A stretch of DNA of 64,000 bases, taken from the NCBI RefSeq assembly GCF_018350175.1, contig NC_058368.1, positions 54,624,001 to 54,688,000 on the forward strand, in the 5' to 3' direction. The notes beneath the pieces were generated by a model, which ran no database searches, had not been told where the DNA came from, and saw only the letters and a program-made list of their open reading frames with translations. Below are positions 12,232 to 48,399 of this stretch, in pieces. Source of the DNA: Felis catus. Its lineage: Eukaryota. Both the position numbers and the translations under genes were made by a program. Each line of letters begins with the position of its first letter. Position 1 is the first letter of the stretch.

Positions 12232-14010
12232 TTTATTTCTCAGCTTTACTAAGGTATAACTGAAAAGTGTAAACATTTAAAATGGGCAACATGACAATTT
12301 GTATGCGTATACATTGTATAAGGATTCCTACCTTTCCATTAATTAACATAATCATTGCCTCATATTTTTACCTTTTTTTTGGTGTATGTGAAAGCAAACA
12401 CTACTGTCTTGGCAAATTTCAGTTACACAACGCAGTATTATCACTATAGTCACCATGTTAAACATTAAACCCTCAGATCTATTTATCTCATAACTGAAAG
12501 TCTGTACCCTTTTATCAATACTCCCTATACCCGTCTCCCCTGGCCATCCCTGGGCAACCACTTTTCTACTCTGTTTCTATGAGGTATTTTCCCCTTTTCT
12601 CTTCTTTCCTTTTTCTTTTCTTTTCTTTTCTTTTCTTTTCTTTCTTTTTCTTTCTTTTTTTTTTTTCCTTCTCCTAAGATTCTGCATGTAAGTGATACCA
12701 TGCAGTATTTGTCTTTCTCTGTCTGGCATATTTCACAAAATGCCCTCCAGATTCACCCATGTTGTCACAAATGTTTTCTTAAGGCTGAATTATTTATATA
12801 TATATATATAAATATAATATATATATAAATTATATATATAAATATATATATTTATATATAAATATAATATATATAAATATAAATATATATAAATATAGAT
12901 ATATATCTATCTATCATTGGATAAATGGATACAGAAAATATATTTTATATCATATATATATATTTTATATCATATATATTATATATATATATTATAAATA
13001 TAGATATATAATATATATAATATATATAATATATAAATATAGATATATATATAGATATATATATCTATCATTGGATAAATGGATACAGAAAATATATTTT
13101 ATATCATATATATATATGATATAAAATATATTTTCTGTATCCATTTATCCAATTTTTTCGTTACTTACATTTTTTCGTTACTTTGGCTATTGTGAATAAT
13201 GCTGCAATAAATATTGTACAATATCTCTGAGTTTCAGCTTCCTATGGGTATACACCCAGAAGTGGGATCTCTGGATCATTTGGTAGTTCTAGTTTTAATT
13301 TCTTGTAAACTTCTATAATGTTTTTCATAGTGGTTGTACCAGCTTACATTCTCACCAACAATACACAAGAGTTCTGTTTTTTCCACATCCTTGCCAGCAT
13401 TTGTTATCTCTTGCATTTTTGATAAGACCTTCTAATAGGTGTGAGGTGATATCTCCTTGTTTTGATTTGCATTTCCCTGATGACTTAGAAATGTTGAGTA
13501 ACTTTCCATGTACCTGCTGGTCATTTGTATGTCTTCTTTGAAAAAATGACTATTCATGTCGTATGCACATTTATTAATCAAGTTATCTATTTTTTTAAAA
13601 AAATACTGAATTGTATGAATTCTTTGTATATTTTGGATATTAACCCCTCATCAAATAGGTGGTTTGTAATTTTTTCTTCTATTCCACACACTTTCATTTT
13701 GCTGATTGCTTCCTCAGGTGGGAACCTTAAAGACTGAGGTCCTAGATGTGCAGTCTAAACACTGTACCCCTCAGGGAGAAGCTGGGAGTTGGGGGTTCCC
13801 TCCTGATTGTGTGGCTCTGTGTCAGAGTTTACGGTGAGAGTGTGTCTCAGCCTTTCTTACATAATCTGATAAAGGTTATTTTCTCTGTAGCCCCACATGT
13901 AGGAGTCACCCATCCAGTTTCTGGACTTCTCTCATGGGGAACCTCTCTGTGTGTGGTGTACATTTGCCGTAGGAGGAGCCTCCAATGTGACCATCTTTGA
14001 CTTCATCTCT
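12232..14010 (-). mobile_element. Old L1 (L1MA-like) with ~300 bp of 5' end joined directly to the ORF2 C-terminus and 3' UTR
   Basis: 12232-13714 is L1 3'UTR/ORF2 end (atgcagtatttgtctttctctgtctggc, ttggctattgtgaataatgctgcaata). 13715-14010 resembles an L1 5' terminus (sense strand begins near aagatggtcacattggaggctcc). Possible TSD ataaatatatttt/ataaatacattct. Confidence 0.75.
12790..13153. repeat. Complex (TA)n array containing a perfect 84-bp palindrome (13070-13153) and a duplicated palindrome arm
   Basis: Read directly; base-by-base symmetry checked. Confidence 0.95.
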
Positions 14011-16800: not shown

Positions 16801-17386
16801 TACAGTAACCATTTTTAGTGACTAAATATAGTTAGATGGAAGAATATGGACAGAGAAGCAGTGGGAAAAGAAAATCGTTTTTGCATCTATAAAATGGACT
16901 TGATAATACATAATTCATAGAGCTGTTCAGTGTATTAATTTATATAAGGAATAGAAATATACATTGAAAACTTTATATAAATATTAAAATTTGAGGATAG
17001 GGCCTTTAATTTGAATTTTATAATATTAAGAGTATTGATTTTCTATTATCTGTCTTGCTTTATTCTAGAAGCTGGAGATATAGCAATGAATGAAACAAAC
17101 TCCCCACGCCAATTTGCACATGTTTACAATAATACTTTAAAATGTTTATATACAGATAATTAGGTAGGAGGAGGGGCCAAGATGGTGGAACAGCATGGAA
17201 GTTTTCTGTGTGTCTTGCGTCCATGAAATACAGCCAGACCAACACTAAACCATCCTACACACCTAGAAAACTAATTGGAGGATTAACACAACAATCTGCA
17301 CAACCTGAACCACAGAATTCAGCAGCTACATGGTGCAGAGAGGTGAAATGGGGGAGAGAGAAGCCGTGGGAAGGGAGGTGCTTTTG

Positions 17387-18616
17387 ATACTACCCAAAGC
17401 AATCTACATGTTCAATGCAATCCCTATCAAAATAACATCAGCATTCTTCACAGAGCTAGAATAAATAATCCTAAAATTTGTATGGAACCAGAAAAGACCC
17501 TGAATAGCCAAAGCAATCTGGAAAAAGAAAACCAAAGCAGGAGTCATCACAATCCCAGACTTCAACCTATACCACAAAGTTGTAATCATCAAGACAGTTC
17601 TTGTGACAGGTGCTGGCACAAGAACAGACACTCAGATCAATGGAACAGAATAGAGAACTCAGAAATGGACCCACAAACGTATGGCCAACTCATCTTTGAC
17701 AAAGCAGGAAAGAATATCCCATGGAATAAAGACAGTCTCTTCAGCAAGTGGTGCTGGGAAAACTGGACAGCAACATGCAGAAGAATGAACCTGGACCACT
17801 TTCTTACACCATATACAAAAATAAACTCAAAATGGATGAAAGACCTCAATGTAAGACAGGAAGCCATCAAAATCCTCGAGGAGAAAGCAGGCAAAAACCT
17901 CTTTGATCTTGGCCACAGCAACTTCTTACTCAACACGTCTCCAGAGGCAAGGGAAACAAAAGCAAAAATGAACTACTGGGACCTCATCAAAATAAAAAGC
18001 TTCTGCACAGTGAAGGAAACAATCAGCAGAACTAAAAGGCAACCGCCAGAATGGGAGAAGATATTTGCAAATGACATAGCAGATAAAGTGTTAGTATCCA
18101 AAATCTACAAAGAACTTATCAAACTCAACACCCAAAAAACAAATAATCCAGTGAAGAAATGGGTAAAAGACATGAATAGACGCTTCTCCAAAGAAGACAT
18201 CTAGATGGCCAACTGACACATGAAAAAATGCTCAACATCACTCATCATCAGGGAAATACAAATCAAAACCACAATGAGATACCACCTTACACCTGTCAGA
18301 ATGGCTAACATTAACAACTCAGGCAACAACAGATGTTGGCAAGGATGTGGAGAAAGAGGATCTCTTTTGCATTGTTGGTGGGAATGCAAGCTGATGCAGC
18401 CACTCTGGAAAACGGTATGGAGATTCCTCAAAAAACTAAAAATAGAACAACCCTACGACCCAGCAATTACGCTACTAGACATTTATGCAAGGGATACAGG
18501 TGTGCTGTTTCAAAGGGACACATGCACCCTTATGTTTATAGCAGCACTATCAATAATAGCCAAAGTATGGAAAGAGCCCAGATGTCCATCGATGGATGAA
18601 TGGATAAAGAAGAAGT

Positions 18617-18670
<54 letters not shown>

Positions 18671-19300: not shown

Positions 19301-19529
19301 GGGGTGCCTGGGTGGCGCAGTCGGTTAAGCGTCCGACTTCAGCCAGGTCACGATCTCGCAGTCCGTGAGTTCGAGCCCCGCATCGGGCTCTGGGCTGATG
19401 GCTCAGAGCCTGGAGCCTGTTTCCGATTCTGTGTCTCCCTCTCTCTCTGCCCCTCCCCCGTTCATGCTCTGTCTCTCTCTGTCCCAAAAATAAATAAACG
19501 TTGAAAAAAAAATTTAAAATAAAATAAAA
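19301..19529 (+). mobile_element. Young CAN-SINE
   Basis: gggtggcgcagtcggttaagcgtccgacttcagccaggtcacgatctcgc; perfect 15-bp TSD taaaatgtggatgga (19286-19300, 19530-19544). Confidence 0.97.
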
Positions 19530-26949: not shown

Positions 26950-27163
26950 TTGAAAATATTTTTTAATGTTTATTTTTGAGAGAGACAGAGACAAAATGCG
27001 AATGGGTTAGGGGCAGAGAGAGAGGGAGACACAGAAACAGAAGCAGGCTCCAGACGCTGAGCTGTCAGCACAGAGTCTGACACGGGGCTCGAACTCACGA
27101 GCTGTGAGATCATGACCTGAGCCAAAGTCAGATGCTCAACCGACTGAGCTACCCAAATGCCCC
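26912..27163 (-). mobile_element. CAN-SINE with (ATTT)n tail
   Basis: Full body; TSD ataaacagat. Confidence 0.95.
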
Positions 27164-29174
27164 TAAAATAAACAGATTTAAAAATGAAATAATTTATAGA
27201 GATGTGATTCTTACCTAATGGTATATAAAATTGATAGCATCTTCTTAAAATGTTCATATTTAGTAACTGCTTTGATATCACCAATTGGCATATCCACTTA
27301 CACACTATAAGGTAATCTAATACCATTTTCTTAATTGCACACTTCTACAAATTGAAAAGTTAAGCGAGACACCTGAAATCATGACTGTTTTGCAGATATG
27401 GAAATGCAAATGAGAATGGTTATTTTCAATTTCTGTATTTGAATCTGTAAACTCTTCTGCTTAACATAACACAATATAACAATTTCTTAAATATTTTATT
27501 CTAAGGTAACTTTACTTACTGTAACTAATATTGGTATGAGTATGAGCATGGCAGAAAAAATCAATTGATGACAGGCCTTCAGGTGCTACGTATATGCACA
27601 GAAAATCGTTTCTTCTTTTTTACAGAGTGTAGTAGTAGAAGAAAGAAGATAAGACTTTGGAAAAAAAGACCCGAGGTAGCAGCTTTGAATTCTGGCTGAC
27701 TCTTATTGTATCTGGCTTTGGGGAGAGCAAATACACTTTTTGACTTCATTTTCCTTACCTTTAAAGTGGGGGAAATTAATACCGGCTCTCAAAGTAAGTG
27801 TGGATATCAAGAAAGAACGTGTTATAAAACGTATGGCAATATGTATTCTGCTATTTTTATTATTGCTAGTTAGTTCTCTACATTATTTTTGCAAACATTT
27901 TTGCTATAAATGAATTTCGTCTGTACCACATTCTTAATACAAATTCTGTTTAGAAAAGTATATTTCTGGGTTGCCTGCTACTCAGAAGTCTTGTCTAATT
28001 GTTGCCTTTGTTACCCTCTGGTTTATAATTTTGATATGTTTCTCATGCTTTATTTTACCATCATTTTTCTAATAAATGTAATCCATTTTTTGTTTATTCT
28101 TCTACTTTTTAACTTAAATGAGGATTTTTTAACTTACATGGGGTCAGACCAACTTGCTCTGACCAACAAATTGATGATCCTCTCCTGCTATTTAAAATTA
28201 TTATTAGAAAATGATGCACATTTTCCAGATGTAAACAGCTTTCCTAAGTTTAAACCAGGAATCTGAGGCTCTATGGGACATTTAAAAATCCAAGCTAATA
28301 ACCTCATTCATCACATATTGGGAACTGTGCAAGAAGGACACAGGCAAAACCTTAGTTCTGAAATTAATTTCCCAATTCACCACTCCCATCTGCTATAATC
28401 TTTTTTAATCCTCTTTGCTTTTCTTATGGCTGTTTTGATTTTCTATCCTTTCTTTATCCTTGATTCTTGGCTGCATTTTCCCAGCAATGAAACTCGCTCA
28501 GGTCTACAATGATTTGGATTTCCTTTCTCACTATTCTTTCATGTCTTCTTGTCTGCAGCAGACAGCTTTGGACCACGGTGGTCATAGAACACGCAGGTCC
28601 CAGCAATGCACCTTACACAAAGCACTGTTAATAGGCTTATCTTAGTCACAAGAACAGTGACTACATAAATACAAAACTATGGTGTCATATACTTTCTCTT
28701 TCATTCATGTATCGGTGTTATGATGATGCTCTGTTGTTGGCCATACTACCAAGATGCAGTTTTTCTTACTTGTCCTTTATGGTATTTAACCCATCCTAAA
28801 TTTAGAAATTAAGTTCTTTTTTTCTGCAATATACTGGAATATCTCTGATAGAAGTGCTTACGTTTGAAGTAACGTAAAATGTGCCTGCATCAAAGTCCAA
28901 TTTTATTATGTGGAAGCAGTAAATCTGCTTTACCTACAAGTTACTGCTTCAACATGATGTGAGTTTGCTATTTTATACTTGAGAAATAATGAAGCTCTAT
29001 GTTTTTGCCTAATATAATAATTCTAAATAGGCATTGCAGAAAATCTAAATTGTGTAATAAACTTAGCACTCTTTATTATATTTGTTCATTTATCATGATG
29101 ATCATTTATTACTCTTTCACTGATTGCTGTGCTTTGAAAATCTCAGTAGGATCTTTGAGTGATCTGAGTTATGG

Positions 29175-29400
29175 TTTAAATAATAATGATACCATACATT
29201 TATACTGCTTTACAGTCCATAAAACATTTTCAGATACATTATCTAATTTTATTTGATGCTCAGGACAACACTGCCAGAAAACAGGGTCAATGTATCTATG
29301 TTAGATAGAAAAAAATTGAAACTCACAGATAATAATTTCCCCCAAACTCACTCAGTTAAACATTAGATGCCCCCTATTTACTTCATAATCTGAGGTGGCT
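29175..29400 (-). mobile_element. MIR-family relic (overlaps the donor of the inverted insertion)
   Basis: catttatactgctttacagt..ataaaacattttcagatacattatct...ttgatgctcaggacaacactg...aaattgaaactcacag. Confidence 0.6.
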
Positions 29401-30090
29401 ATAGTGAAGCTTCATTTTGTTCTCAGTGCCCAGTAAAAGAGGTAAGAACATTAGGACTCCCAGCATGGTTTTATGCCCATATTTTTCAGTATATCTAAAA
29501 CTTAACTATTCAAGACCTAGAACAAATTCTTCCTCTCCTATGATCTCCCCTATTATTTCAGTTTGAGTAAATTTTCTGTCCAATGACTTATTTCCAACAT
29601 TTAAAGTTATAGTAACTATTTAAACTAACTTCTATTACTTACTCCATAACTTCTTTATTTCTCAAATTCATTTTTTTAAGTTTTTATTTAAATTCCAGTT
29701 AGTTAACATAGAGCAAATATTAGTTACATGTGCACAATGTAGTGACTCAACACTTCTCTACAACACTTGGTGCTTGTCAAAGCAAGTGCACTCCTTAATC
29801 CCCATCACCTATTTAACCCGTCCCTACAACCCACCTCCACTCTGGTAACCATCAGTCTGTTCTCTATAGTTAAGAGTCTTTTTTCTTGGTTTGCCTTTCT
29901 CTCTCTTTTTTTCATTTGCTCCTTTGTTTGGTTTCTTAAATTCCATATATGGGTGAAATCATTTGGTATTTGTCTTTCTCTGACTTATTTTGCTTAGCAT
30001 AACACTCTCTAGTTCCATCCACATCATTGCAAATGGCAAGATTTCATTCCTTTTTATGGTTAATATTCCATTGTGTGCGTGTGTGTATGT

Positions 30091-30267
30091 ATACATACAT
30101 TGGCCCTCTTTTCTGGCAGTGCTGTCCTGAGCATCAAATAAAATTAGATAATGTATCTGAAAATGTTTTATGGACTGTAAAGCAATATAAATGTATGGTA
30201 TCATTATTATTTAAACCATAACGCAGATCACTCAAAGATCCTACTGACATTTTCAAAGCACAGCAAT
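30091..30267 (-). repeat. 177-bp inverted duplicate of 29123-29299 inserted in the L1 microsatellite
   Basis: Ungapped reverse-complement alignment by eye: 170/177 identical. Confidence 0.97.
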
Positions 30268-30314
30268 ATACATGTATATATATTTCAAAGCACATTATAT
30301 ATATTTATATACTA

Positions 30315-30348
<34 letters not shown>

Positions 30349-33300
30349 CACTTTTTCTTTATCCATTCATCAGTCAATGGACATTTGGACTCTTTCCATA
30401 ATTTTACTATTGTTGATAATTCTGCTATAAACATTGGGATGCATGTATTCCTTTGAATCAGTATTTTTGTATCCTTTGGGTGACTACTTAGCTGTGCAAT
30501 TGCTGGATCATTGGGTAGTTTTATTTTTAATTTTTTGAGGAACATCCATAGTCTTTTCCAGAGCGGCTACACCAGTTTGCATTCTCACTGACATTATAAG
30601 AAGGTTCCCCTTTTCCCACATCATCTCCAAGACCTGTTGTTTTTTGTGTTGCTAATTTTAGCTGTTCTGACTGGTGTGAGGTGGTATCTTATTGTAGTTT
30701 TGATTTGTATTTCCCTGACGAGAGATGTCAAGCATCTTTCAGTCTGCTGGCCATCTGTATGTCTTCTTTGGAAAATGTCTATTCATGTCTTCTGCTCATT
30801 TTTTAACTATCATTTGTTTTTTGGGTGTTGAGTTTTATAAGTTCTTCATATATTTTCAATACTAACACTTTATCAGATACGTCATATGCAAATATCTTCT
30901 CCCATTCCAAAAGCTGCCTTTAAGGTTTGTTGATTGTTTCCTTCACTGAGCATCAGATTTTTATTTTGATAAATTCCCAATATTTTTGCATTTGTTTCAC
31001 TTGCCTCAGGAGACTGATCTAAAAAGAAGTTGCTATGGCTGATGTCAAAGAGATTACGGCTTATGTCCCTCCCTAGGATTTTGATTATTTCCTATCTCAC
31101 ATTTTGGTATTTCATCCATTTTGAATTTATTTTTATGTATGGTGTAAGAAAGCGGTCCAATTTCATTCTTTTGCATGTAGCTGTCCAGTTTTCCCAGCAC
31201 CATTTGTTGAAGAGACTGTCATTTTCCCACTGGATATTCTTTCCTTCTTTGTCGAAGATTAATTTACTATTACAGTTGTGGGTTAATTTCTGGGTTTTCT
31301 ATTCTGTTCCATTGATCTTTGTGTCTGTTTTTGTGCCAGGACCATACTGTCTTGATGACTACAGCTTTGTAATATAAGTTGAAGTGCATATTTGTGATGC
31401 TTCCAGCTTTGCTTTTCTTTTTCAAGGTTGCTTTGGCTATTTGGAGTTTTTTTGTGGTTCCCTACAAATTTTTGGATCTTTTGTCCCAGATCTCTGAAAA
31501 ATACTGGTGGTATTTTGATAGGGATTGCATTAAATGTGTAGATTGCTTTGGGTAGTATAGACATATTAACAAAATTTGTTCTTCCAATCCATGAGGATGG
31601 AATGTTTTTCCATTTCTTTTTGTCACCTTCAATATCTTTCATCAGTGTTCTTTAGTTTTCTCATGTCATGTCATCCACAAATAGTGAAAGTTTTATTTCT
31701 TCCTTGCTAATTTGGTTTTTTTTACTTCTTTTTGTTGTCTGATTGCTGTAGCTAATACTTCCAGTGCTATGTTAAATAACAGTAGTGAGTGAATATCCCT
31801 GTCTTGTTCCTCACTATGGGGGAAAACTTATAAGCTTTTCCCCATTGAGGATGATATTAGCTGTGGGTTTTCTTTCATATATGGCCTTATTGTGGTGAGG
31901 TACTTTATTGAGAGTTTTTACTACGAATGAATGTGGTACTTTGTCAGACGCTTTTTCTGCATTATAAGGATCATGTGGTCCTTATCCTTTCTTTTATTAA
32001 TGTGGGGTATCACATGGATTGATTTGGGAATATTGAACTACATTCCTACCCAGGAATAAATCCCATGTGATCCTGGTGGATGATTTTTTTAATGCATTTT
32101 TGGATTCAGTTCATAATATTTATATTGAGAATTTTTACAACCATGTTCATTTGGGATATTGGCCTGTAGTTCTCTTTTTTTAATGGAGTCTTTATCTGGT
32201 TTTGGTATCAGGGTAATGCTGGCCTCACTGAAGTAATTTGGAAGTTTTCTTTCCTTTTCTATTTTTTAGAAACAGTTTGAGAAGAATAGGTAAAAAAAAC
32301 TCTTCCATAAATGTTTGGTAGAATTTCCCTTGGAGCTATCTGGCCCTGGTCTTTTGTTTGTTGGGAGTTTTTGATTACTGATTCAATATCTTTGCTGGCT
32401 ATGGGCCTGTTCAAGTTTTCTTCCTATTTTGGTTTTGGTAGTTCATATATTTTTAGGAATTTACCCATTTCCTTGTGGTTGACTTCTAGGTTCATAGTGT
32501 TGTGGTCAGAAAGGGTGCATGATATATTTCAATCTTTTTTTTTTATTCCTTAAGGCTTTTTTGTGACCTATTATGTGATCTATTCTGGAGAATGCTTCAT
32601 GTGCACTTGAAAAGAATGTGCATTCTGGCTGTTTTTGGATGAAATGTTCTGAATGTATGTATCTTTGAAGTTCATCTGGACTTGTGCCATTCAAAGCCAT
32701 TATTTCCTTATTTATTTTCTGTTTTGACCATCTGTCTATTGATGTAAGTGGGGTGTTAAAGTCTCCTACTATTATTGTGTTATTTTCAATTAGTTCCTTT
32801 ATGTTTGTTATTAATTGTTTTATATATTTGGGCACTCTCATGTTAGATGCATAAATATTTATAATTGTTATATCTCCTAGTTGGATTGTCCCTTTTATGC
32901 CTTTCTGTGTCTCGTCTTACAGTCTTTGTTTTAAAGACTTGTTTTTCCAATAGAAGTATTGCTACTCCAGCTTTCTTTTCACATTCTCTTGCATGACAAA
33001 TGTTTCTCCACCCCCCTTCACTTTCAATCTTCAGGTGTCTTTGGATCTAAATGAGTCTCTTATAGGCAGCATATAGATGGGTCTTGTTTTTCTATCCATT
33101 CTGATACCTCATGTCTTTTGATTGGAGCATTTAGTTAATTTACATTCAAAGTAATTATTGATAGATATGTATTTATTGCCATTTTATTACTAGTTTTGTT
33201 TTTGGTTCTGGGGATTTCTCTGATCATTCTTGTCTTTGTCACTTTTGGTGTCTCCTTTGCACTCAGAGTCCCCTATATTTTTTTCAGAGCTAGTTTAGTG

Positions 33301-34894
33301 GTCACCAACTCCTTTAGTTTTTGTTTGTCTGGGAAATTCTTATATTTCCCTCTATTCTGAATGACAGCCTTGCTAGATAGAGTATTCTTAGCTGCAGATT
33401 TTTCCCATTAACTTATTTCATTATATCATGCCACCCCCTTCTGGCTTGATAAGTTTCTGTTGAGAAATTTCCAGTAGCCTTATGGGTCTTCCCTTGTAAG
33501 TTAAGGACTTCTTTTGTCCTGTTGCTTTCAAGATTTTTTCCTTTTTCACTGCATTTTGCAAATGTAATTACAATATGTCTTGGTGTTGGCTTGCTTTTGT
33601 TGATTTTGATGGGAGTTCTCTGTGCCTCCTGGACTAGATATCCTTTCCCTTCCTCGGATTAGGGAAGTTTTCTGCTGTTATTTCTTGAAATAAATTTTCT
33701 GCTCCCTTTCTCTTCTTCTGGGACTTCTATGATAAGAATGCTATTATGTTTTATGAGGTCTCTGTGTTCCCTAAGTCTATTCTTGCCTTGCATAATTCTT
33801 TCTCCTTTGTGTTCAGCTTCATTATTTTGTCTTCTAGATCACTAATCATTTCTCTGATTCTTCCAGCCTCCTGTTCATTGCATCAAGCCTGTTTCCAATC
33901 TCATTTACTGAATTCTTCATCTCTGATTATTTTTAACTCTTATCTCTGTGGTAGGGGTCTCACTGATGTTTTCTATTCTCTTCTCAAGCCCAGTATGTAT
34001 CCTTATGATCATTGCTTTAAATTCTCCATCAGTCATGTTACTTATATCTGTTTTGTTAGATTTCTGGCTGTGGCCTTATCTTGTTCTTTCATTTGGGATA
34101 AATTTCTCTGCCTTGGCATTTTTTATAAGTCCCTGTCTTCTTCTGTGTGTTAGAAAGTCAGTTATGTCTCCTGCTCCTGAAAGTAATGTTGTTATGAAGA
34201 AGAGATCATTTAGTTTACAGGGCCTGGTGCTTTAGGGAGTGTCTCCAGTGTGTGCTGTTTGTGCTCTGCTGTTGTGTTAAGCCTGCTTTATCCTTCAGGC
34301 CAGTCTGCAGAGATTCCCCTTGCCTGCTGTGGGAAGTGTTTGGTCCCTGCCTGAATGTGGTGAGTTTTAACTATGTGTGTTCTGGTCCACTTGTGAAATG
34401 AGACCTGAGACCAACTCCACCAGAATTGAGGCCCTGCAGAACTCTGGTTGGGAGACCTGGTGTGGGCAGGGGTTTGGACTCGTCTTCAGGAGGAGGGGCT
34501 TGCTACAATGGGCCTGGGGCAAACTTAACTCAGAGGCACAGTCCCACCAGAGCACAGGGGGTAGGACTTGGTGTAAGCAAGTTAGGCAGGCATTGTTGAC
34601 CCTGAGCTGCTTTCTGCAAGTGGCTCTGTGTTTATGCTGAAGGGTGGTGGGGGAAATGGCAAGAGCCAGTTCCTTTGTCCCCAGAGACGCACCTTGGGTG
34701 AATGCTGCCTCTAAGTGACACACTCTGAGAAGAGCAAAGGATCTCCCTGCTGTGTGCTGCAGGAGTTCTTCAGATCACAGTTTCCACACTTCTGCCCCTT
34801 GGGGTTGTTTGCCTGCCCTCTCTCCAGGAGCAACACAGTGCCTTCTGGGCTCTATTCCAGCCAAGTCCACTGGACTTTAAAACTCCAGGCTTTA

Positions 34895-35079
34895 GGGGTG
34901 CCTGGGTGGCTCAGCTGGTTAAGTGCCTGACTGGATTTCAGCTCTGGTCATGATCTCATGGTTTGTGAGTTCAAGCCTCTGCACTGGCAGTGTGAAGCCT
35001 GCTTGTGATTCTCTCTGTCCCTTTCCTGCTCTCACTCTCTCTCAAAATAAATAAACTTAACAGCAACAACAACAACAAC
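34895..35079 (+). mobile_element. CAN-SINE (first of tandem pair) in L1 5' UTR
   Basis: ggggtgcctgggtggctcagctggttaag head; (CAA)n tail. Confidence 0.93.
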
Positions 35080-35093
35080 AACTCCATGCCTCA

Positions 35094-35294
35094 GAGGTGC
35101 CTGGATGGCTCAGTCCCTTGAGTGTCCAATTCTTAATTTAGGCTCAGGTCAACGTCTCATGGTCGTGTAATATAGCCCCACATTGGATTTTGTGCTGATT
35201 GTGAGGGCCTGCTTGGGATTCTCTTTTTCTTCCTCTGCCCTTCCCCTGCTCCTGCTCTCTCTCTCTCTCAAAAACAAAACAAAACAAAGCAAAT
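35094..35294 (+). mobile_element. CAN-SINE (second of tandem pair) in L1 5' UTR
   Basis: gaggtgcctggatggctcagtc head; (AAAAC)n tail. Confidence 0.92.
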
Positions 35295-35665
35295 AACTCT
35301 AGGCTTTAAGTCTTATTGGTTGCAAGAACTCACAAAACTCAGTCCCTCTCATTTTTTAAGCCAATGACTTTGGGGAAATGTTCTCCTTGTGTGTTCACTT
35401 GGGTGGTCCTCTCTCTATTGCCCTTCATTGTGACTACAGCTCCCTCCCCTCTGCATCACCTTTCTCCCCTAAATCACATCTCTGCACTTTCTACCTTCTT
35501 AATGTGACCTCTTTTCTCCCTTTAGTTGTGGAGTTTGTTCTGTTAGTCTTCAGGTCAATTTGGGGGGGGGGGTATTTAGGATGATTTGATAGTTATCTAC
35601 CTGTGTTCATGGGATGAGAGGAACCTAGGGTCCTCCTGCTCCACCACCATCTTTCTCTCTTCTCC

Positions 35666-35762
35666 TTCACTGTCGTTTTGATTTGCATTTCCCTGATGAT
35701 CAGTGATGCTGAACATCTTTTCAGGTGTCTATTCTCCATGTGTATGTCTTTTTTGGAGAAAT
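35666..35762 (-). mobile_element. Short L1 ORF2 3' fragment
   Basis: gttttgatttgcatttccctgatgatcagtgatgctgaacatcttttc...gtatgtcttttttggagaaat. Confidence 0.85.
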
Positions 35763-36991
35763 CTCATGCTTGACAAGTTTTCTTTACATACACTTCTTCA
35801 TATATACTCCACCTATATTCTGTCTTTCTTTTCCTCAGTCTGTATGTTTGCTGCTTGTCTGTCCTAATCCTATTGTGTTTTCAAGATAATATCTATCTGT
35901 AACCATTTATCTATTGTTTATTAAAAAATTTGACTTAGTAATAATATTCAATAAACTCCTTAAGACAAGAAAAAAAATCTCACTTAGTAAACATATCCTG
36001 CCTGACCCACAGATATGGAAGTGTCTCCTCCTTGGGAAGGTATATTTTCCTATGAATTTCTTTAATTTTCACTTTAAGGGCTGTTTGTGTATTGGACTTC
36101 TCTACATTTATTGTGCTCATGAATAGAGTATATATAAATATCAAAACAATTAAGTACATGCTTACTATACAGTCTCTGGTACATACCAAATACGTAACAG
36201 TGATTAGCATTCAGATGTTGAAATAAATATTAAACTAACTTCAAAAGTCTAACTAGTTTATTATATATGTTGGACCATGTAAATGTTCATGGAGAAATGA
36301 ATTTAGACATTCTCACTGCTGACCCTTTATACCTGCTGTCTTTATTTATTTCTCTCTGGACAACTGGATAAAACCATCAGCAAGTATTTGGATCATTTTC
36401 TATAAATCAAGAGTCCCATTTTAGTTTAGTATAGAATTTCCAAACCTCAGTGAAGATTAAAATTCCTCCTCTTCACTAATTTAAGCCTTCCCCATTCAGT
36501 GAATTCTGAAGTATGGAAGGGAGGCATAATAATTCTATTTCTACCTCTTCTTTTTTTTTTTCTTCTTATTTGCTGAAGTTTTGAGTAGTTTGATGGGCAG
36601 AATCAAGGGAGAAGGAAAAGATGTAAAGTACAGGGAAGATCCTGCTAGACAGATACTTATCAATTGGCCTTGCATTGTTGTGGATACCAAAGGTGTCTTT
36701 TCTTTTTATGATATTTTAATGGATTTATCAGATATATTTTCAGGTATTCAGTCTTTCCTCTGAGTCAGCTTATCCCTCCATGATGGCCTTGCCCATACCT
36801 GTCCAAATGGAAACACACCTTTGCTTTGCTTTTGGTGTAAATATAACTGCAGCTAAAATATTCCTCTTACTCTATTCAACCACCTCAACCACATTTAGCT
36901 TCAGATTCTTAATCCCATTTTTCACCAACAAATATTAGTCACCAGTTCTGGAATCAAGAGCATAGGTCCACTTAAGATTCGAAGTGGCTCT

Positions 36992-37209
36992 GGGGAGCCT
37001 GGGTGGCGCAGTCGGTTAAGCGTTCAACTTCAGCCAGGTCACGATCTCGCGGTCCGTGAGTTCGAGCCCCGCGTCGGGCTCTGGGCTGATGGCTCGGAGC
37101 CTGGAGCCTGTTTCTGATTCTGTGTCTCCCTCTCTCTCTGCCCCTCCCCCGTTCATGCTCTGTCTCTCTCTGTCCCCAAAATAAATAAACGTTGAAAAAA
37201 AAAATTTAA
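36992..37209 (+). mobile_element. Young CAN-SINE
   Basis: CpG-rich body; perfect 17-bp TSD aagattcgaagtggctc (36974-36990, 37210-37226). Confidence 0.97.
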
Positions 37210-38759
37210 AAGATTCGAAGTGGCTCCTCTGGTGGAGCTTCAAAGGCATGGAGGTGATTGTGCAACACCAATAGTTCCAGCAGTAGTGTCCTGGGACCAT
37301 CTTTCTGGTGTTAGAAACTTGTCTCTACATCACTTCCTTGGTTCTATACCAAGACTAGTTTTGAGAGCTACTGAATATCTTTTCATTAAAATACTTTTTA
37401 CTTTAAGCTAACAGTTACTGGTTTTGCTTTCCATTTTTTCCCACCAAGAAATACAATAAAAATTATTAATGAGTTGATATAGCAGGGATGTTATACAAAT
37501 TTCCAATTGCTTTTAATTATTTCTTTTACTTATCTAAATGTTGCAAGGTTATTCTATGACATACTTGCTGAGCATCACCCTGAATTAATTATTTCTTATC
37601 ATAAGGATGAGGAAACATAATAAACTAATAAGGTACAATTCAGTTACTCCAATTCAGTGTCTATTTCTTTCTTTCAATTGCTACTATTTATACGAAGAGT
37701 ATTGGTCTATATCCTGATTTTTAAACATAGCAAGAAGTTCAAATAAGCAATGTAATGTTGAATATAAAAACTCAGAAATTGAAACCGTGTAGAAATTAAG
37801 ACAGTAAGACAGTATTGTTTAATAAATATAAGCACAAAACACACATAGAATTTAATACATCTTACTCTGTAACTGCATACCATATGGAAAATGGTCACAT
37901 GCCATTTTACAAAATTGAAATAACTGCATTGCTGGTAAGACGTAAAGAGGGAAATACTCAGTTTTACAACTGACCTTTATGGCACTTTCATAGCTTAGAA
38001 ACAAATGACCTAATTTTACTAAATTCCAGCTCCCATGACAGTCATCCTTGCCTAGACAAGTTTGAAAGTGCTGTAACTTATATAATGTCAAGCCATTTGT
38101 AGTCTAATCTCATCACAGATAACTTAACAAGTTACAATGGACAAAATTATAAGAAAAAAGGATTTTAAATCTCAACAGAAAAAGTTCTAAATGCCAAAAA
38201 TGTGTTTTTAACACGAAAAGAACTTCTGAAATTCTTCTTTGTATTAAATATACTATACACATTAGAATGTCCCCAAATTTCTCTTTCCTTTACAATCTCC
38301 TTTAAATTTTCCATCTATATCAGCCTGGGCTGAATTTAAAATTTTCAATCTATTCACCCAACAGTTCTGAATCTCTTCATTTGTTTTCTTGCCAGTAAAT
38401 ACACCCTACTTAAATAAATCCATCAAGTGAGCCTCAGAGACTCTCAATTCATCTCCTCAAACATTATCTTGATTTTGCCTATCAAATGCTCACAAATAGA
38501 GAAGGTGAAAACTAATTCTCCTTAATCAGCACAGGAATGAAGAAGCCATGAAAATCATGCAGTAATATTTGTCTTGCCATATTAAGGACAACAAATATTA
38601 ATATGAGATAAGGAGGTGTATTGTGGTTTGCCTATAATATAGGATTCAAATAATGTAGAGTAACATACGTATATGTTTGTGTGTGGCTGTGTGTGTGTGT
38701 GGGGGGGGAGGGAGACACGAAGTTCATTCATTGCTTCTGTAATGCCTAAGAGACATTAC

Positions 38760-47645: not shown

Positions 47646-48204
47646 AAGAATGCATGCACTTCTAATTCCCTGCATTAAAATATCTTCCTGCATAAAGGTG
47701 CATAGAATGGCTCGAGTTTTTTCTTATTAAACCCTAAAAAAATATAAATTTCAAAAATTTCTTTAATAAGGCAACTAAAGCCCAAAGAGATAATAGCCAT
47801 GTGGTGAGTTGAAAAAATTATCTAAGAATGATCCTAAAGTAATGGTACTTGTCCTGATTTTATTGCTTCCAGTGAATTCCTTCAAAGGACAGGCAATTCC
47901 AGTACATGTGATTAGAGTCAGGTCTATAAAATAATGGGGAGTTATTCATTTCTTTATAAAGAAAGAATAATGGGGAGTTATTCATTTCTTCATAAATACT
48001 GTAAAATCTGATTTACAAAAAGAAATAAAAATAACACAAAGATTTTGTGAAACATGCAGAGTCTGGCTCCCGGTTAAAAACTTGCCCAATCATAGGCCCA
48101 ATCACAGGCAATTACAAAGGCTCTACCAGGCATGCCTCAGAGAGGAAAGCTGTCCCCCCACCCCCAACACTGAGTCAAGGACTCAGGCCATTTGGTTGAC
48201 AATG

Positions 48205-48255
<51 letters not shown>

Positions 48256-48399
48256 TATATGTGCATCATATATATATATGATATATATCATATATATCAT
48301 ATATATGTGCATTTCTAGCCCAAGCACCTCCATCTGGAGGTCTCTATATGTGGGAGAAGGGGCACCTCTGGAGAGACATCCTTAATCTGGAGTGACACT

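What the first reader, a model, noticed from the sequence alone, without database searches (positions are those of the whole stretch)
29123..30294. 177-bp inverted, locally templated insertion inside an L1 microsatellite, with a second micro-copy
Seen: 30091-30267 is the ungapped reverse complement of 29123-29299 (7 mismatches in 177, 96%). The donor lies outside the L1, about 0.4-0.55 kb beyond its poly-A and 791 bp from the copy. The copy sits inside the (TG)/(TA) run of the L1 and starts at an atacatac/atagatac microhomology. It is followed by TA filler and a 12-bp re-copy of its own end (tttcaaagcaca, 30251-30262 repeated at 30283-30294). There is no poly-A or TSD of its own, so it is not a retrocopy. 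Known: such scars are typical of iterative template switching (FoSTeS/MMBIR or polymerase-theta end joining), and (TA)n arrays are break-prone. Inference: a germline break at the microsatellite was healed by copying the opposite strand nearby. The 4% divergence between arms suggests this happened after the visibly more decayed L1 inserted. If transcribed, the pair could form a 177-bp dsRNA stem.
Basis: partly seen in the sequence, partly recalled or inferred. Interest (0 to 1): 0.72.

Follow-up and report, generated by a model that had tools for sequence, protein, structure and literature searches.

The report
Old inverted DNA-repair patch in L1
A 177-base stretch of non-coding DNA was copied backwards into a TA/TG repeat inside a dead L1 jumping gene 0.8 kb away, most likely while a break was being repaired millions of years ago; it is a clean example of a known kind of repair scar, with no sign of a function.

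Summary
Observation confirmed: 30091-30267 is the ungapped reverse complement of 29123-29299 (170 of 177). The copy interrupts the 3' UTR microsatellite of a decayed L1 whose flanks stay colinear with a sister L1 lacking it. The donor joins unique DNA to part of an ancient repeat that continues past the donor end, which fixes direction and local origin. The left junction has a 6-base perfect, 9-of-10 imperfect microhomology, the best such site in 3 kb; the right has 2 bases, then palindromic filler and a 12-base re-copy (shuffle p about 0.014). This resembles yeast fold-back insertions and human microhomology-mediated templated insertions, with a longer reach. Arm divergence (6 of 173) gives roughly 8-12 My with a wide interval, far younger than the L1. 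Not obtained: read-level or cross-species proof, or any evidence of transcription or editing. A second L1 in the window has inverted flank copies in the same TA run, a weak hint of a hotspot. New member of a known kind; interest 0.27.

The parts
29123..29299 (+). Donor arm: about 55 nt of unique DNA plus the left part of an ancient dispersed repeat
29179..29364 (+). Ancient dispersed repeat (looks like MIR; name recalled, not from a call). It runs on past the donor end at 29299, so this side is the original
   Evidence: profile built from 7 other window copies, donor not in training: E 2.3e-05, 19.3 bits; reversed-window null best E 2.1; E 0.002
29290..29299 (+). Priming site: 6 perfect and 9 of 10 bases complementary to the microsatellite end at 30091-30100
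   Evidence: best of all + strand sites in 27000-30020
29671..35650 (-). Host L1, decayed, near full length; 5' end approximate, placed by inspection
   Evidence: Pfam endonuclease domain 32509-32916 (E 2e-06) and L1 ORF1 RBD-like domain 33416-33658 (E 1.3e-08); 78% to sister L1 over 30296-31558
30084..30100 (.). Left junction: alternating purine/pyrimidine end of the microsatellite with a 16-bp perfect palindrome (30084-30099); its last 6-10 bases are the microhomology
30091..30267 (-). Inverted copy of the donor; perfect match starts at 30095; 6 substitutions (3 transitions, 3 transversions), no indel
30266..30282 (.). Right junction: 2-base microhomology and filler with a 14-bp perfect palindrome (30266-30279)
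30283..30294 (-). 12-base second copy of donor 29128-29139 (same as 30251-30262), same orientation as the main copy, ending 5 nt from where the main copy ends
30295..30346 (.). TA-rich filler, 10-bp palindrome (30309-30318) and (TG)14.5 run, after which the L1 resumes

Best explanation
A real, old, probably neutral templated insertion made during repair of a germline break in the L1's TA/TG microsatellite. Most likely path: (1) break in the repeat [inferred]; (2) resection of about 1 kb leaves the + strand single-stranded [inferred]; (3) its 3' end (30091-30100) folds back on the same strand and pairs at 29290-29299 over a loop of about 790 nt [microhomology shown, pairing inferred]; (4) a polymerase copies about 167 nt to 29123 [product shown]; (5) the new end lets go, adds palindromic filler, re-primes for 12 nt on the same template and stops within 5 nt of the first stop, perhaps the edge of the resected tract [product shown, order inferred]; (6) it is joined to the right-hand end over about 2 bases, losing no L1 sequence outside the repeat [shown by colinearity]. 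The arms then drifted by about 3.5%. Steps 3-4 suit a processive polymerase, step 5 suits polymerase theta; the enzymes are not identified.
For: Ungapped 96% inverted match to local DNA. Direction: the ancient repeat is whole at the donor and cut off in the copy, and the L1 is colinear on both sides with a sister copy that has only a TA run there, so nothing between the arms is inverted. Long microhomology on the left, 2 nt on the right: the pattern of yeast fold-back insertions, with an imperfect 10-bp inverted microhomology, 10 to over 150 bp copied and 0-5 bp (median 2) at capture (PMC11724301, section 15 read). Sites with a 3' run of 6 and 9 of 10 matches number 12 in about 63.6 kb of + strand. 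Later than the L1: against the sister L1's open frame the host has 5 stops and 6 frameshifts in 263 codons and 13% difference at second codon positions; P(6 or fewer of 173) is 0.001 even at 10%. TA repeats are break-prone and repaired by microhomology joining in cancer cells (PMC13645644, passages).
Against: No read-level check was obtained. In one search the 14 best DNA-type runs hold only 0.83-0.87 of 225 sampled words of 28300-30400, and words private to the insert are 9.2% of that stretch, so these shares fit the insert being present or being absent from those runs. The microhomology was defined from the junction itself, which is partly circular, and a microsatellite reworks its own letters over millions of years. 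PMC13645644 saw the TA breakage on circular DNA and no increase on the chromosomal amplification. The 12-mer has only p about 0.014-0.03 before its position is considered.
Confidence: 0.6

Rival explanations
1. Replication-fork template switch (FoSTeS/MMBIR type) read from the right: a leftward-moving new strand stalls at the repeat, makes an aborted 12-nt start on the other parental strand about 1 kb ahead, restarts 5 nt further out, copies about 170 nt backwards and returns through the 6-10 base microhomology. Same product, no fold-back.
For: Both copies would start within 5 nt of each other (29128 and 29123). Aborted synthesis followed by re-priming, with a longer microhomology at the end, is described for templated insertions (bioRxiv 2019.12.20.882852, passages). 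Multi-template germline events are common in humans: 33 of 103 and 26 of 99 curated calls in two people (PMC8421209, section 10 part 1).
Against: Priming would rest on 2 bases for the long copy and none beyond the copied letters for the short one, and needs about 1 kb of unwound template ahead of the fork.
Confidence: 0.22
2. RNA-templated patch: a minus-strand read-through transcript of the L1 that ran into the 3' flank was reverse-transcribed into the break (class 2 templated sequence insertion).
For: The donor lies 0.37-0.55 kb downstream of the L1 3' end, and the orientation fits priming from the right on a minus-strand RNA (inference). Class 2 inserts have no poly-A or target duplication (PMC5110952, passages).
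Against: Those inserts come from distant loci; the host L1 was long decayed; no evidence of transcription here; the mismatches show no A-to-G bias (1 A/G and 1 T/C of 6).
Confidence: 0.06
3. Assembly or sequencing artefact, or a young private event whose mismatches are copying errors and not age.
For: No run holds more than 0.87 of the words, a gap that could include the insert. Fold-back artefacts at TA repeats are a general risk (own knowledge).
Against: An artefact should give near-identical arms or indel-type errors; here there are 6 evenly spread substitutions and no indel, plus structured filler. About 0.5% divergence between the window and those runs would give the same shares (0.856).
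Confidence: 0.07
4. The insert is as old as the L1 (made at integration) and the arms were later homogenised by gene conversion.
For: Inverted arms 0.8 kb apart can convert each other (own knowledge).
Against: Identity falls to random at both ends with no decayed shoulder; mismatches are not patchy (P = 0.45 for a longest identical run of 62); the insert is inside the 3' UTR, not at an L1 end.
Confidence: 0.04
5. The pair has been kept because it forms a double-stranded RNA stem with a role (editing, retention, splicing).
For: The arms would pair stably if co-transcribed (duplex about -273 or -284 kcal/mol), which any 96% inverted pair does.
Against: No Rfam match; only L1 domains pass Pfam cut-offs among 96 of 130 frames scanned; arm divergence is what neutral drift gives.
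Confidence: 0.02

Closest known systems
Local fold-back inverted insertions at double-strand breaks in yeast (PMC11724301; section 15 and passages read)
   Same: Inverted copy of DNA beside the break, primed by an imperfect 10-bp inverted microhomology, 10 to over 150 bp long, captured by 0-5 bp at the other end.
   Different: 41-nt loop and mostly 5-34 bp there; about 790-nt loop and about 170 bp here, with a second round of copying, in a mammalian germline.
Microhomology-mediated templated insertions (MMB-TI), germline 'classical' and 'complex' classes in humans (PMC8421209; section 10 part 1 and passages read)
   Same: Inverted copy of a nearby template with 2-12 nt microhomology or microhomeology; several templates in one event; present as germline variants.
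   Different: Their search needs the template within 100 bp and filters microsatellite calls; this event is 0.8 kb away, inside a microsatellite and millions of years old. Their supplementary event lists were not seen and may hold closer cases.
Polymerase-theta templated insertions (bioRxiv 10.1101/2019.12.20.882852; passages read)
   Same: Aborted rounds of synthesis in AT-rich DNA; direct and inverse repeats of the flank; the 12-mer and palindromic filler fit.
   Different: Typically 3-30 bp from within about 30 bp (longest insertion of any kind 157 bp); the main copy is outside the usual range.
Short-range template switches in great apes (PMC7954356; abstract and passages read)
   Same: Fixed evolutionary scars giving single inverted repeats, enriched near AT-rich DNA (4017 events).
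   Different: Template within 100 nt and not repeat-masked, so an event like this one would not be counted.
Templated sequence insertion polymorphisms, classes 1 and 2 (PMC5110952; passages read)
   Same: Class 2: a patch at a break, no poly-A, microhomology and filler.
   Different: Donor is distant and thought to be RNA; here it is adjacent.

Membership tests
MMB-TI / local templated insertion | Insert is an inverted copy of a nearby template that remains in place | tested here: met
MMB-TI / local templated insertion | Microhomology or microhomeology at the junctions | tested here: met
   6 perfect and 9 of 10 on the left, 2 on the right
MMB-TI / local templated insertion | Return to the original track with flanks colinear | tested here: met
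   alignment to sister L1
MMB-TI as operationally searched (PMC8421209) | Template within 100 bp of the insertion | tested here: not met
   791 nt.
MMB-TI / local templated insertion | An ancestral allele without the insert at the orthologous site | not testable with these tools
   no genome held; only paralogous L1s compared
Polymerase-theta TINS | 3-30 bp insert templated within about 30-50 bp | tested here: not met
   main copy about 170 nt from 0.8 kb; only the 12-mer and filler fit
Polymerase-theta TINS | Dependence on POLQ | not testable with these tools
   needs genetics
Fold-back inverted insertion (yeast type) | Long imperfect inverted microhomology at the priming end and 0-5 nt at the capture end | tested here: met
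   direction of synthesis is inferred
Class 1 TSIP / L1-made retrocopy | Poly-A tail, TTTT/A site and target duplication | tested here: not met
   no poly-A and no T-rich target; only a 6-7 nt microsatellite-like direct repeat
Class 2 TSIP | Donor distant from the insertion | tested here: not met
   donor adjacent
Independent insertion of a dispersed repeat | Copy matches the family no worse than it matches one local member, with element-like ends | tested here: not met
   copy is 96% to the donor including about 55 nt of unique flank, but scores only 6.2 bits (E 0.24) on the family profile; a genome-wide search was not possible
Edited inverted-repeat dsRNA | Both arms in one transcript with A-to-I sites | not tested
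   no RNA reads were examined on the locus

The most novel reading that the evidence does not exclude
The TA/TG microsatellite that carnivore L1s carry in their 3' UTR is a dispersed germline fragile site that repeatedly collects fold-back copies of its flanks, some from as far as 1 kb. Each scar can be dated by arm divergence, so cat-family genomes would hold a time-resolved record of TA-repeat breakage and repair that current surveys miss because they mask repeats and look only 100 nt away. Support is thin: 2 of 3 L1 3' UTR arrays in this window carry such copies against 0 of 15 other arrays (18 arrays chosen from the 29 rows); leaving out the ascertained event it is 1 of 2 against 0 of 15 (p about 0.12 by hand), or against 0 of 4 TA-rich arrays (p about 0.33). 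No title or abstract start in searches described this; those were listings only and the library lacks most subscription papers.
Probability: 0.3. Interest if true: 0.55.

Novelty: new member of a known kind. Interest (0 to 1): 0.27.

Why it matters
As a single locus it matters little: a neutral scar in a dead L1. It is useful as a well-preserved worked example in which template, priming site, second round and rough date can all be read, at a reach (0.8 kb) that published germline surveys exclude by design. If shared across species it is a homoplasy-poor marker near the root of the cat family. It would matter more if the L1 3' UTR repeat proves to be a general hotspot, because that would give thousands of datable germline repair events at TA repeats, whose fragility has mostly been studied in cancer cells and yeast.

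Tried and rejected
Own genome: none held, so no genome-wide copy count. Laying reads on the locus gave no data, so presence in individuals, polymorphism, transcription and editing stay open. Word shares were tested as a substitute and cannot decide. One exact 29-base pattern from the arms found 0 stretches in metagenome contigs, uninformative for a mammal. Rfam: 0 matches. Pfam on 96 of 130 stop-to-stop frames of 70 aa or more (34 left out, mostly in SINEs, simple repeats or overlapping frames): only L1 domains passed a cut-off; short exons would be missed, so intron or intergenic is undecided. Single-sequence nhmmer with the donor gave only weak hits (E 0.25-4.9); the profile search was needed. 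Rejected: inversion between the arms (L1 and ancient repeat both colinear); retrocopy or 3' transduction; independent repeat insertion; patchy gene conversion; an APOBEC-like or editing-like mismatch spectrum (mixed contexts). Earlier-finding look-ups near this place, by sequence and by words gave nothing relevant.

Full report
Observation. The window holds a 177-nt inverted repeat with arms 29123-29299 and 30091-30267, 791 nt apart, 170 of 177 complementary and without gaps. Identity drops to random at both ends. Among inverted matches of at least 30 nt and 88% in the window it is the only close pair; the other two are SINE pairs over 10 kb apart. The 12-mer at 30283-30294 repeats 30251-30262 and occurs otherwise only as the reverse complement in the donor.

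Setting. The copy lies in a minus-strand L1 from about 29671 to about 35650, identified by Pfam endonuclease and ORF1 domains. A second L1 (17387-18970) aligns with the host on both sides of the insert and has only a TA run there, so the insert sits in the 3' UTR microsatellite, no L1 sequence outside the repeat was lost, and nothing between the arms is inverted. The genome is of a cat-like carnivore by the labels and by unchecked earlier notes; no whole genome is held. Rfam found nothing; Pfam found only L1 domains above cut-off in 96 of 130 long frames.

Which arm is the original. A profile built from 7 other copies of an ancient repeat in the window, without the donor, hits 29179-29364 (E 2.3e-05; reversed-window null best E 2.1) and so crosses the donor end at 29299; in the copy it hits only 30211-30118 (E 0.24) (first seen). 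The repeat looks like a MIR; that name is recalled. The copy thus carries about 55 nt of unique flank and a cut-off piece of this one decayed element. It came from this locus and is not a fresh insertion of a repeat family.

Junctions. Left: the perfect match starts at 30095, inside an alternating purine/pyrimidine run (30084-30100) that includes a 16-bp palindrome. The last 10 bases of that run match 29290-29299 at 9 of 10, with 6 perfect at the 3' end. This is the best site on the + strand in 27000-30020; sites this good number 12 in about 63.6 kb. The test is partly circular because the primer was read off the junction. Right: 2 shared bases, a 14-bp palindrome, the 12-mer, more TA-rich filler with a 10-bp palindrome, then (TG)14.5. 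The 12-mer is reached by 286 of 20000 shuffles of the filler and by 142 of about 5000 random window pieces: suggestive, and more so because it ends 5 nt from the end of the main copy. A 6-7 nt direct repeat flanks the core but consists of microsatellite letters; there is no poly-A.

Age. Leaving out the junction mismatch, the arms differ at 6 of 173 sites (3.5%; 95% interval 1.3-7.4%), 3 transitions and 3 transversions, evenly spread (P = 0.45). With the cat rates of 2.3e-9 and 1.54e-9 per year (bioRxiv 10.1101/2021.04.06.438608, passages) this is about 8 or 12 My, with a range of roughly 3-25 My (arithmetic); that paper puts the cat-tiger split near 12 My. The host L1 is much older: 5 stops and 6 frameshifts in 263 codons and 13% difference at second positions against the sister's open frame; 6 or fewer differences in 173 has P = 0.001 at 10% divergence. 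The lack of indels between the arms is not informative by itself (P = 0.27). Two SINEs nested in the L1 are 14% and 23% from their closest window relatives, against 3.7% for the youngest SINE pair. The date assumes faithful copying and no conversion.

Mechanism. Most likely (0.6): a break in the repeat, about 1 kb of resection, fold-back of the + strand 3' end onto 29290-29299, copying to 29123, filler and a 12-nt second round, then joining over 2 bases. The asymmetry mirrors yeast fold-back insertions (PMC11724301, section 15). The mirror-image fork switch read from the right (0.22) gives the same product but primes on 2 bases or none. An RNA-templated patch (0.06), an artefact or young error-prone event (0.07), an old insert kept alike by conversion (0.04) and a functional RNA stem (0.02) are less likely. 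Products and microhomologies are shown; break, resection, order and enzymes are inferred. TA repeats break and are mended by microhomology joining on circular DNA in cancer cells, with no increase seen on the chromosomal amplification (PMC13645644, passages).

What stays open. No reads were examined on the locus (one search gave no data). One search lists 14 DNA-type runs of one organism, from 6 studies, holding 0.83-0.87 of 225 sampled words. Words private to the insert are 191 of 2071 (9.2%), words touching the TG run 2.8%, and 0.5% divergence alone would leave 0.856. The shares therefore fit both presence and absence of the insert. Substitutions without indels argue against an assembly artefact but do not replace reads. 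Transcription and editing were not examined; the stable duplex energy follows from the match alone.

Comparison with what is known. It works like the microhomology-mediated templated insertions found as human germline variants, about 100 curated calls of all classes per person, a quarter to a third of them multi-template (PMC8421209, section 10 part 1), and like ape short-range switches (PMC7954356, abstract and passages). Both surveys stop at 100 nt, so it falls outside their catalogues but not outside the kind. It fails the size and distance features of polymerase-theta inserts except for the 12-mer and filler, and fails class 1 and class 2 templated sequence insertions. Passages of PMC7025897 and PMC8082928 show templated insertions in cancer genomes and a low count among human germline insertions (15 of 3364 insertion events). 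No supplementary files were read. Unchecked earlier notes describe three other local inverted-copy scars in this genome, which points to a recurrent class.

Side result. A third L1 3' end (about 12560-13714) has, at the same 3' UTR site, an 84-bp perfect palindrome (13070-13153) made from its right flank and a second 48-nt inverted copy (12916-12963) 154 nt upstream. So 2 of 3 L1 arrays, and 0 of 15 other arrays tested (18 chosen from 29 rows), hold inverted flank copies. With the ascertained event removed this is not significant, and the perfect palindrome could be an artefact. It is the only lead here towards something larger.

Verdict. Real in the assembly, well explained as an old neutral repair scar, a new member of a known kind. 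Interest 0.27; hotspot reading probability 0.3, interest 0.55 if true.

Noticed in passing
window 12791-13153: TA array at the same 3' UTR site of another L1 holds an 84-bp perfect palindrome (13070-13153) and a second 48-nt perfect inverted copy of the right flank (12916-12963), period 154; a short direct duplication follows at about 13155-13185. Young fold-back scar or artefact.
   Followed up: partly
window 48208-48306: TA array outside L1 with nested 18- and 26-bp palindromes and a short repeated unit, a smaller snap-back-like pattern.
   Followed up: no
window 31808-31851: 44-bp quasi-palindrome (83%) inside the host L1 ORF2 region, possibly a short-range template switch.
   Followed up: no
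window 34881-35308: Two old SINEs in tandem inside the L1 5' region, flanked by a 14-bp direct repeat with one mismatch, with a partial third copy between them.
   Followed up: partly
window 17347-18204: Sister L1 3' fragment keeps a 285-codon open frame and a pure 50-bp TA run (18618-18667); much better preserved than the host L1.
   Followed up: partly
window 35667-35765: Short L1 3'-type fragment directly beyond the 5' end of the host L1 (76-83% to three other L1 pieces).
   Followed up: no
window 19301-19519 and 36992-37211: Youngest SINE pair in the window, 3.7% apart, about the same as the two arms.
   Followed up: no
window 47930-47990: 25-nt exact direct repeat at spacing 36 with a 16-bp palindrome (47949-47964) at its junction.
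   Followed up: no
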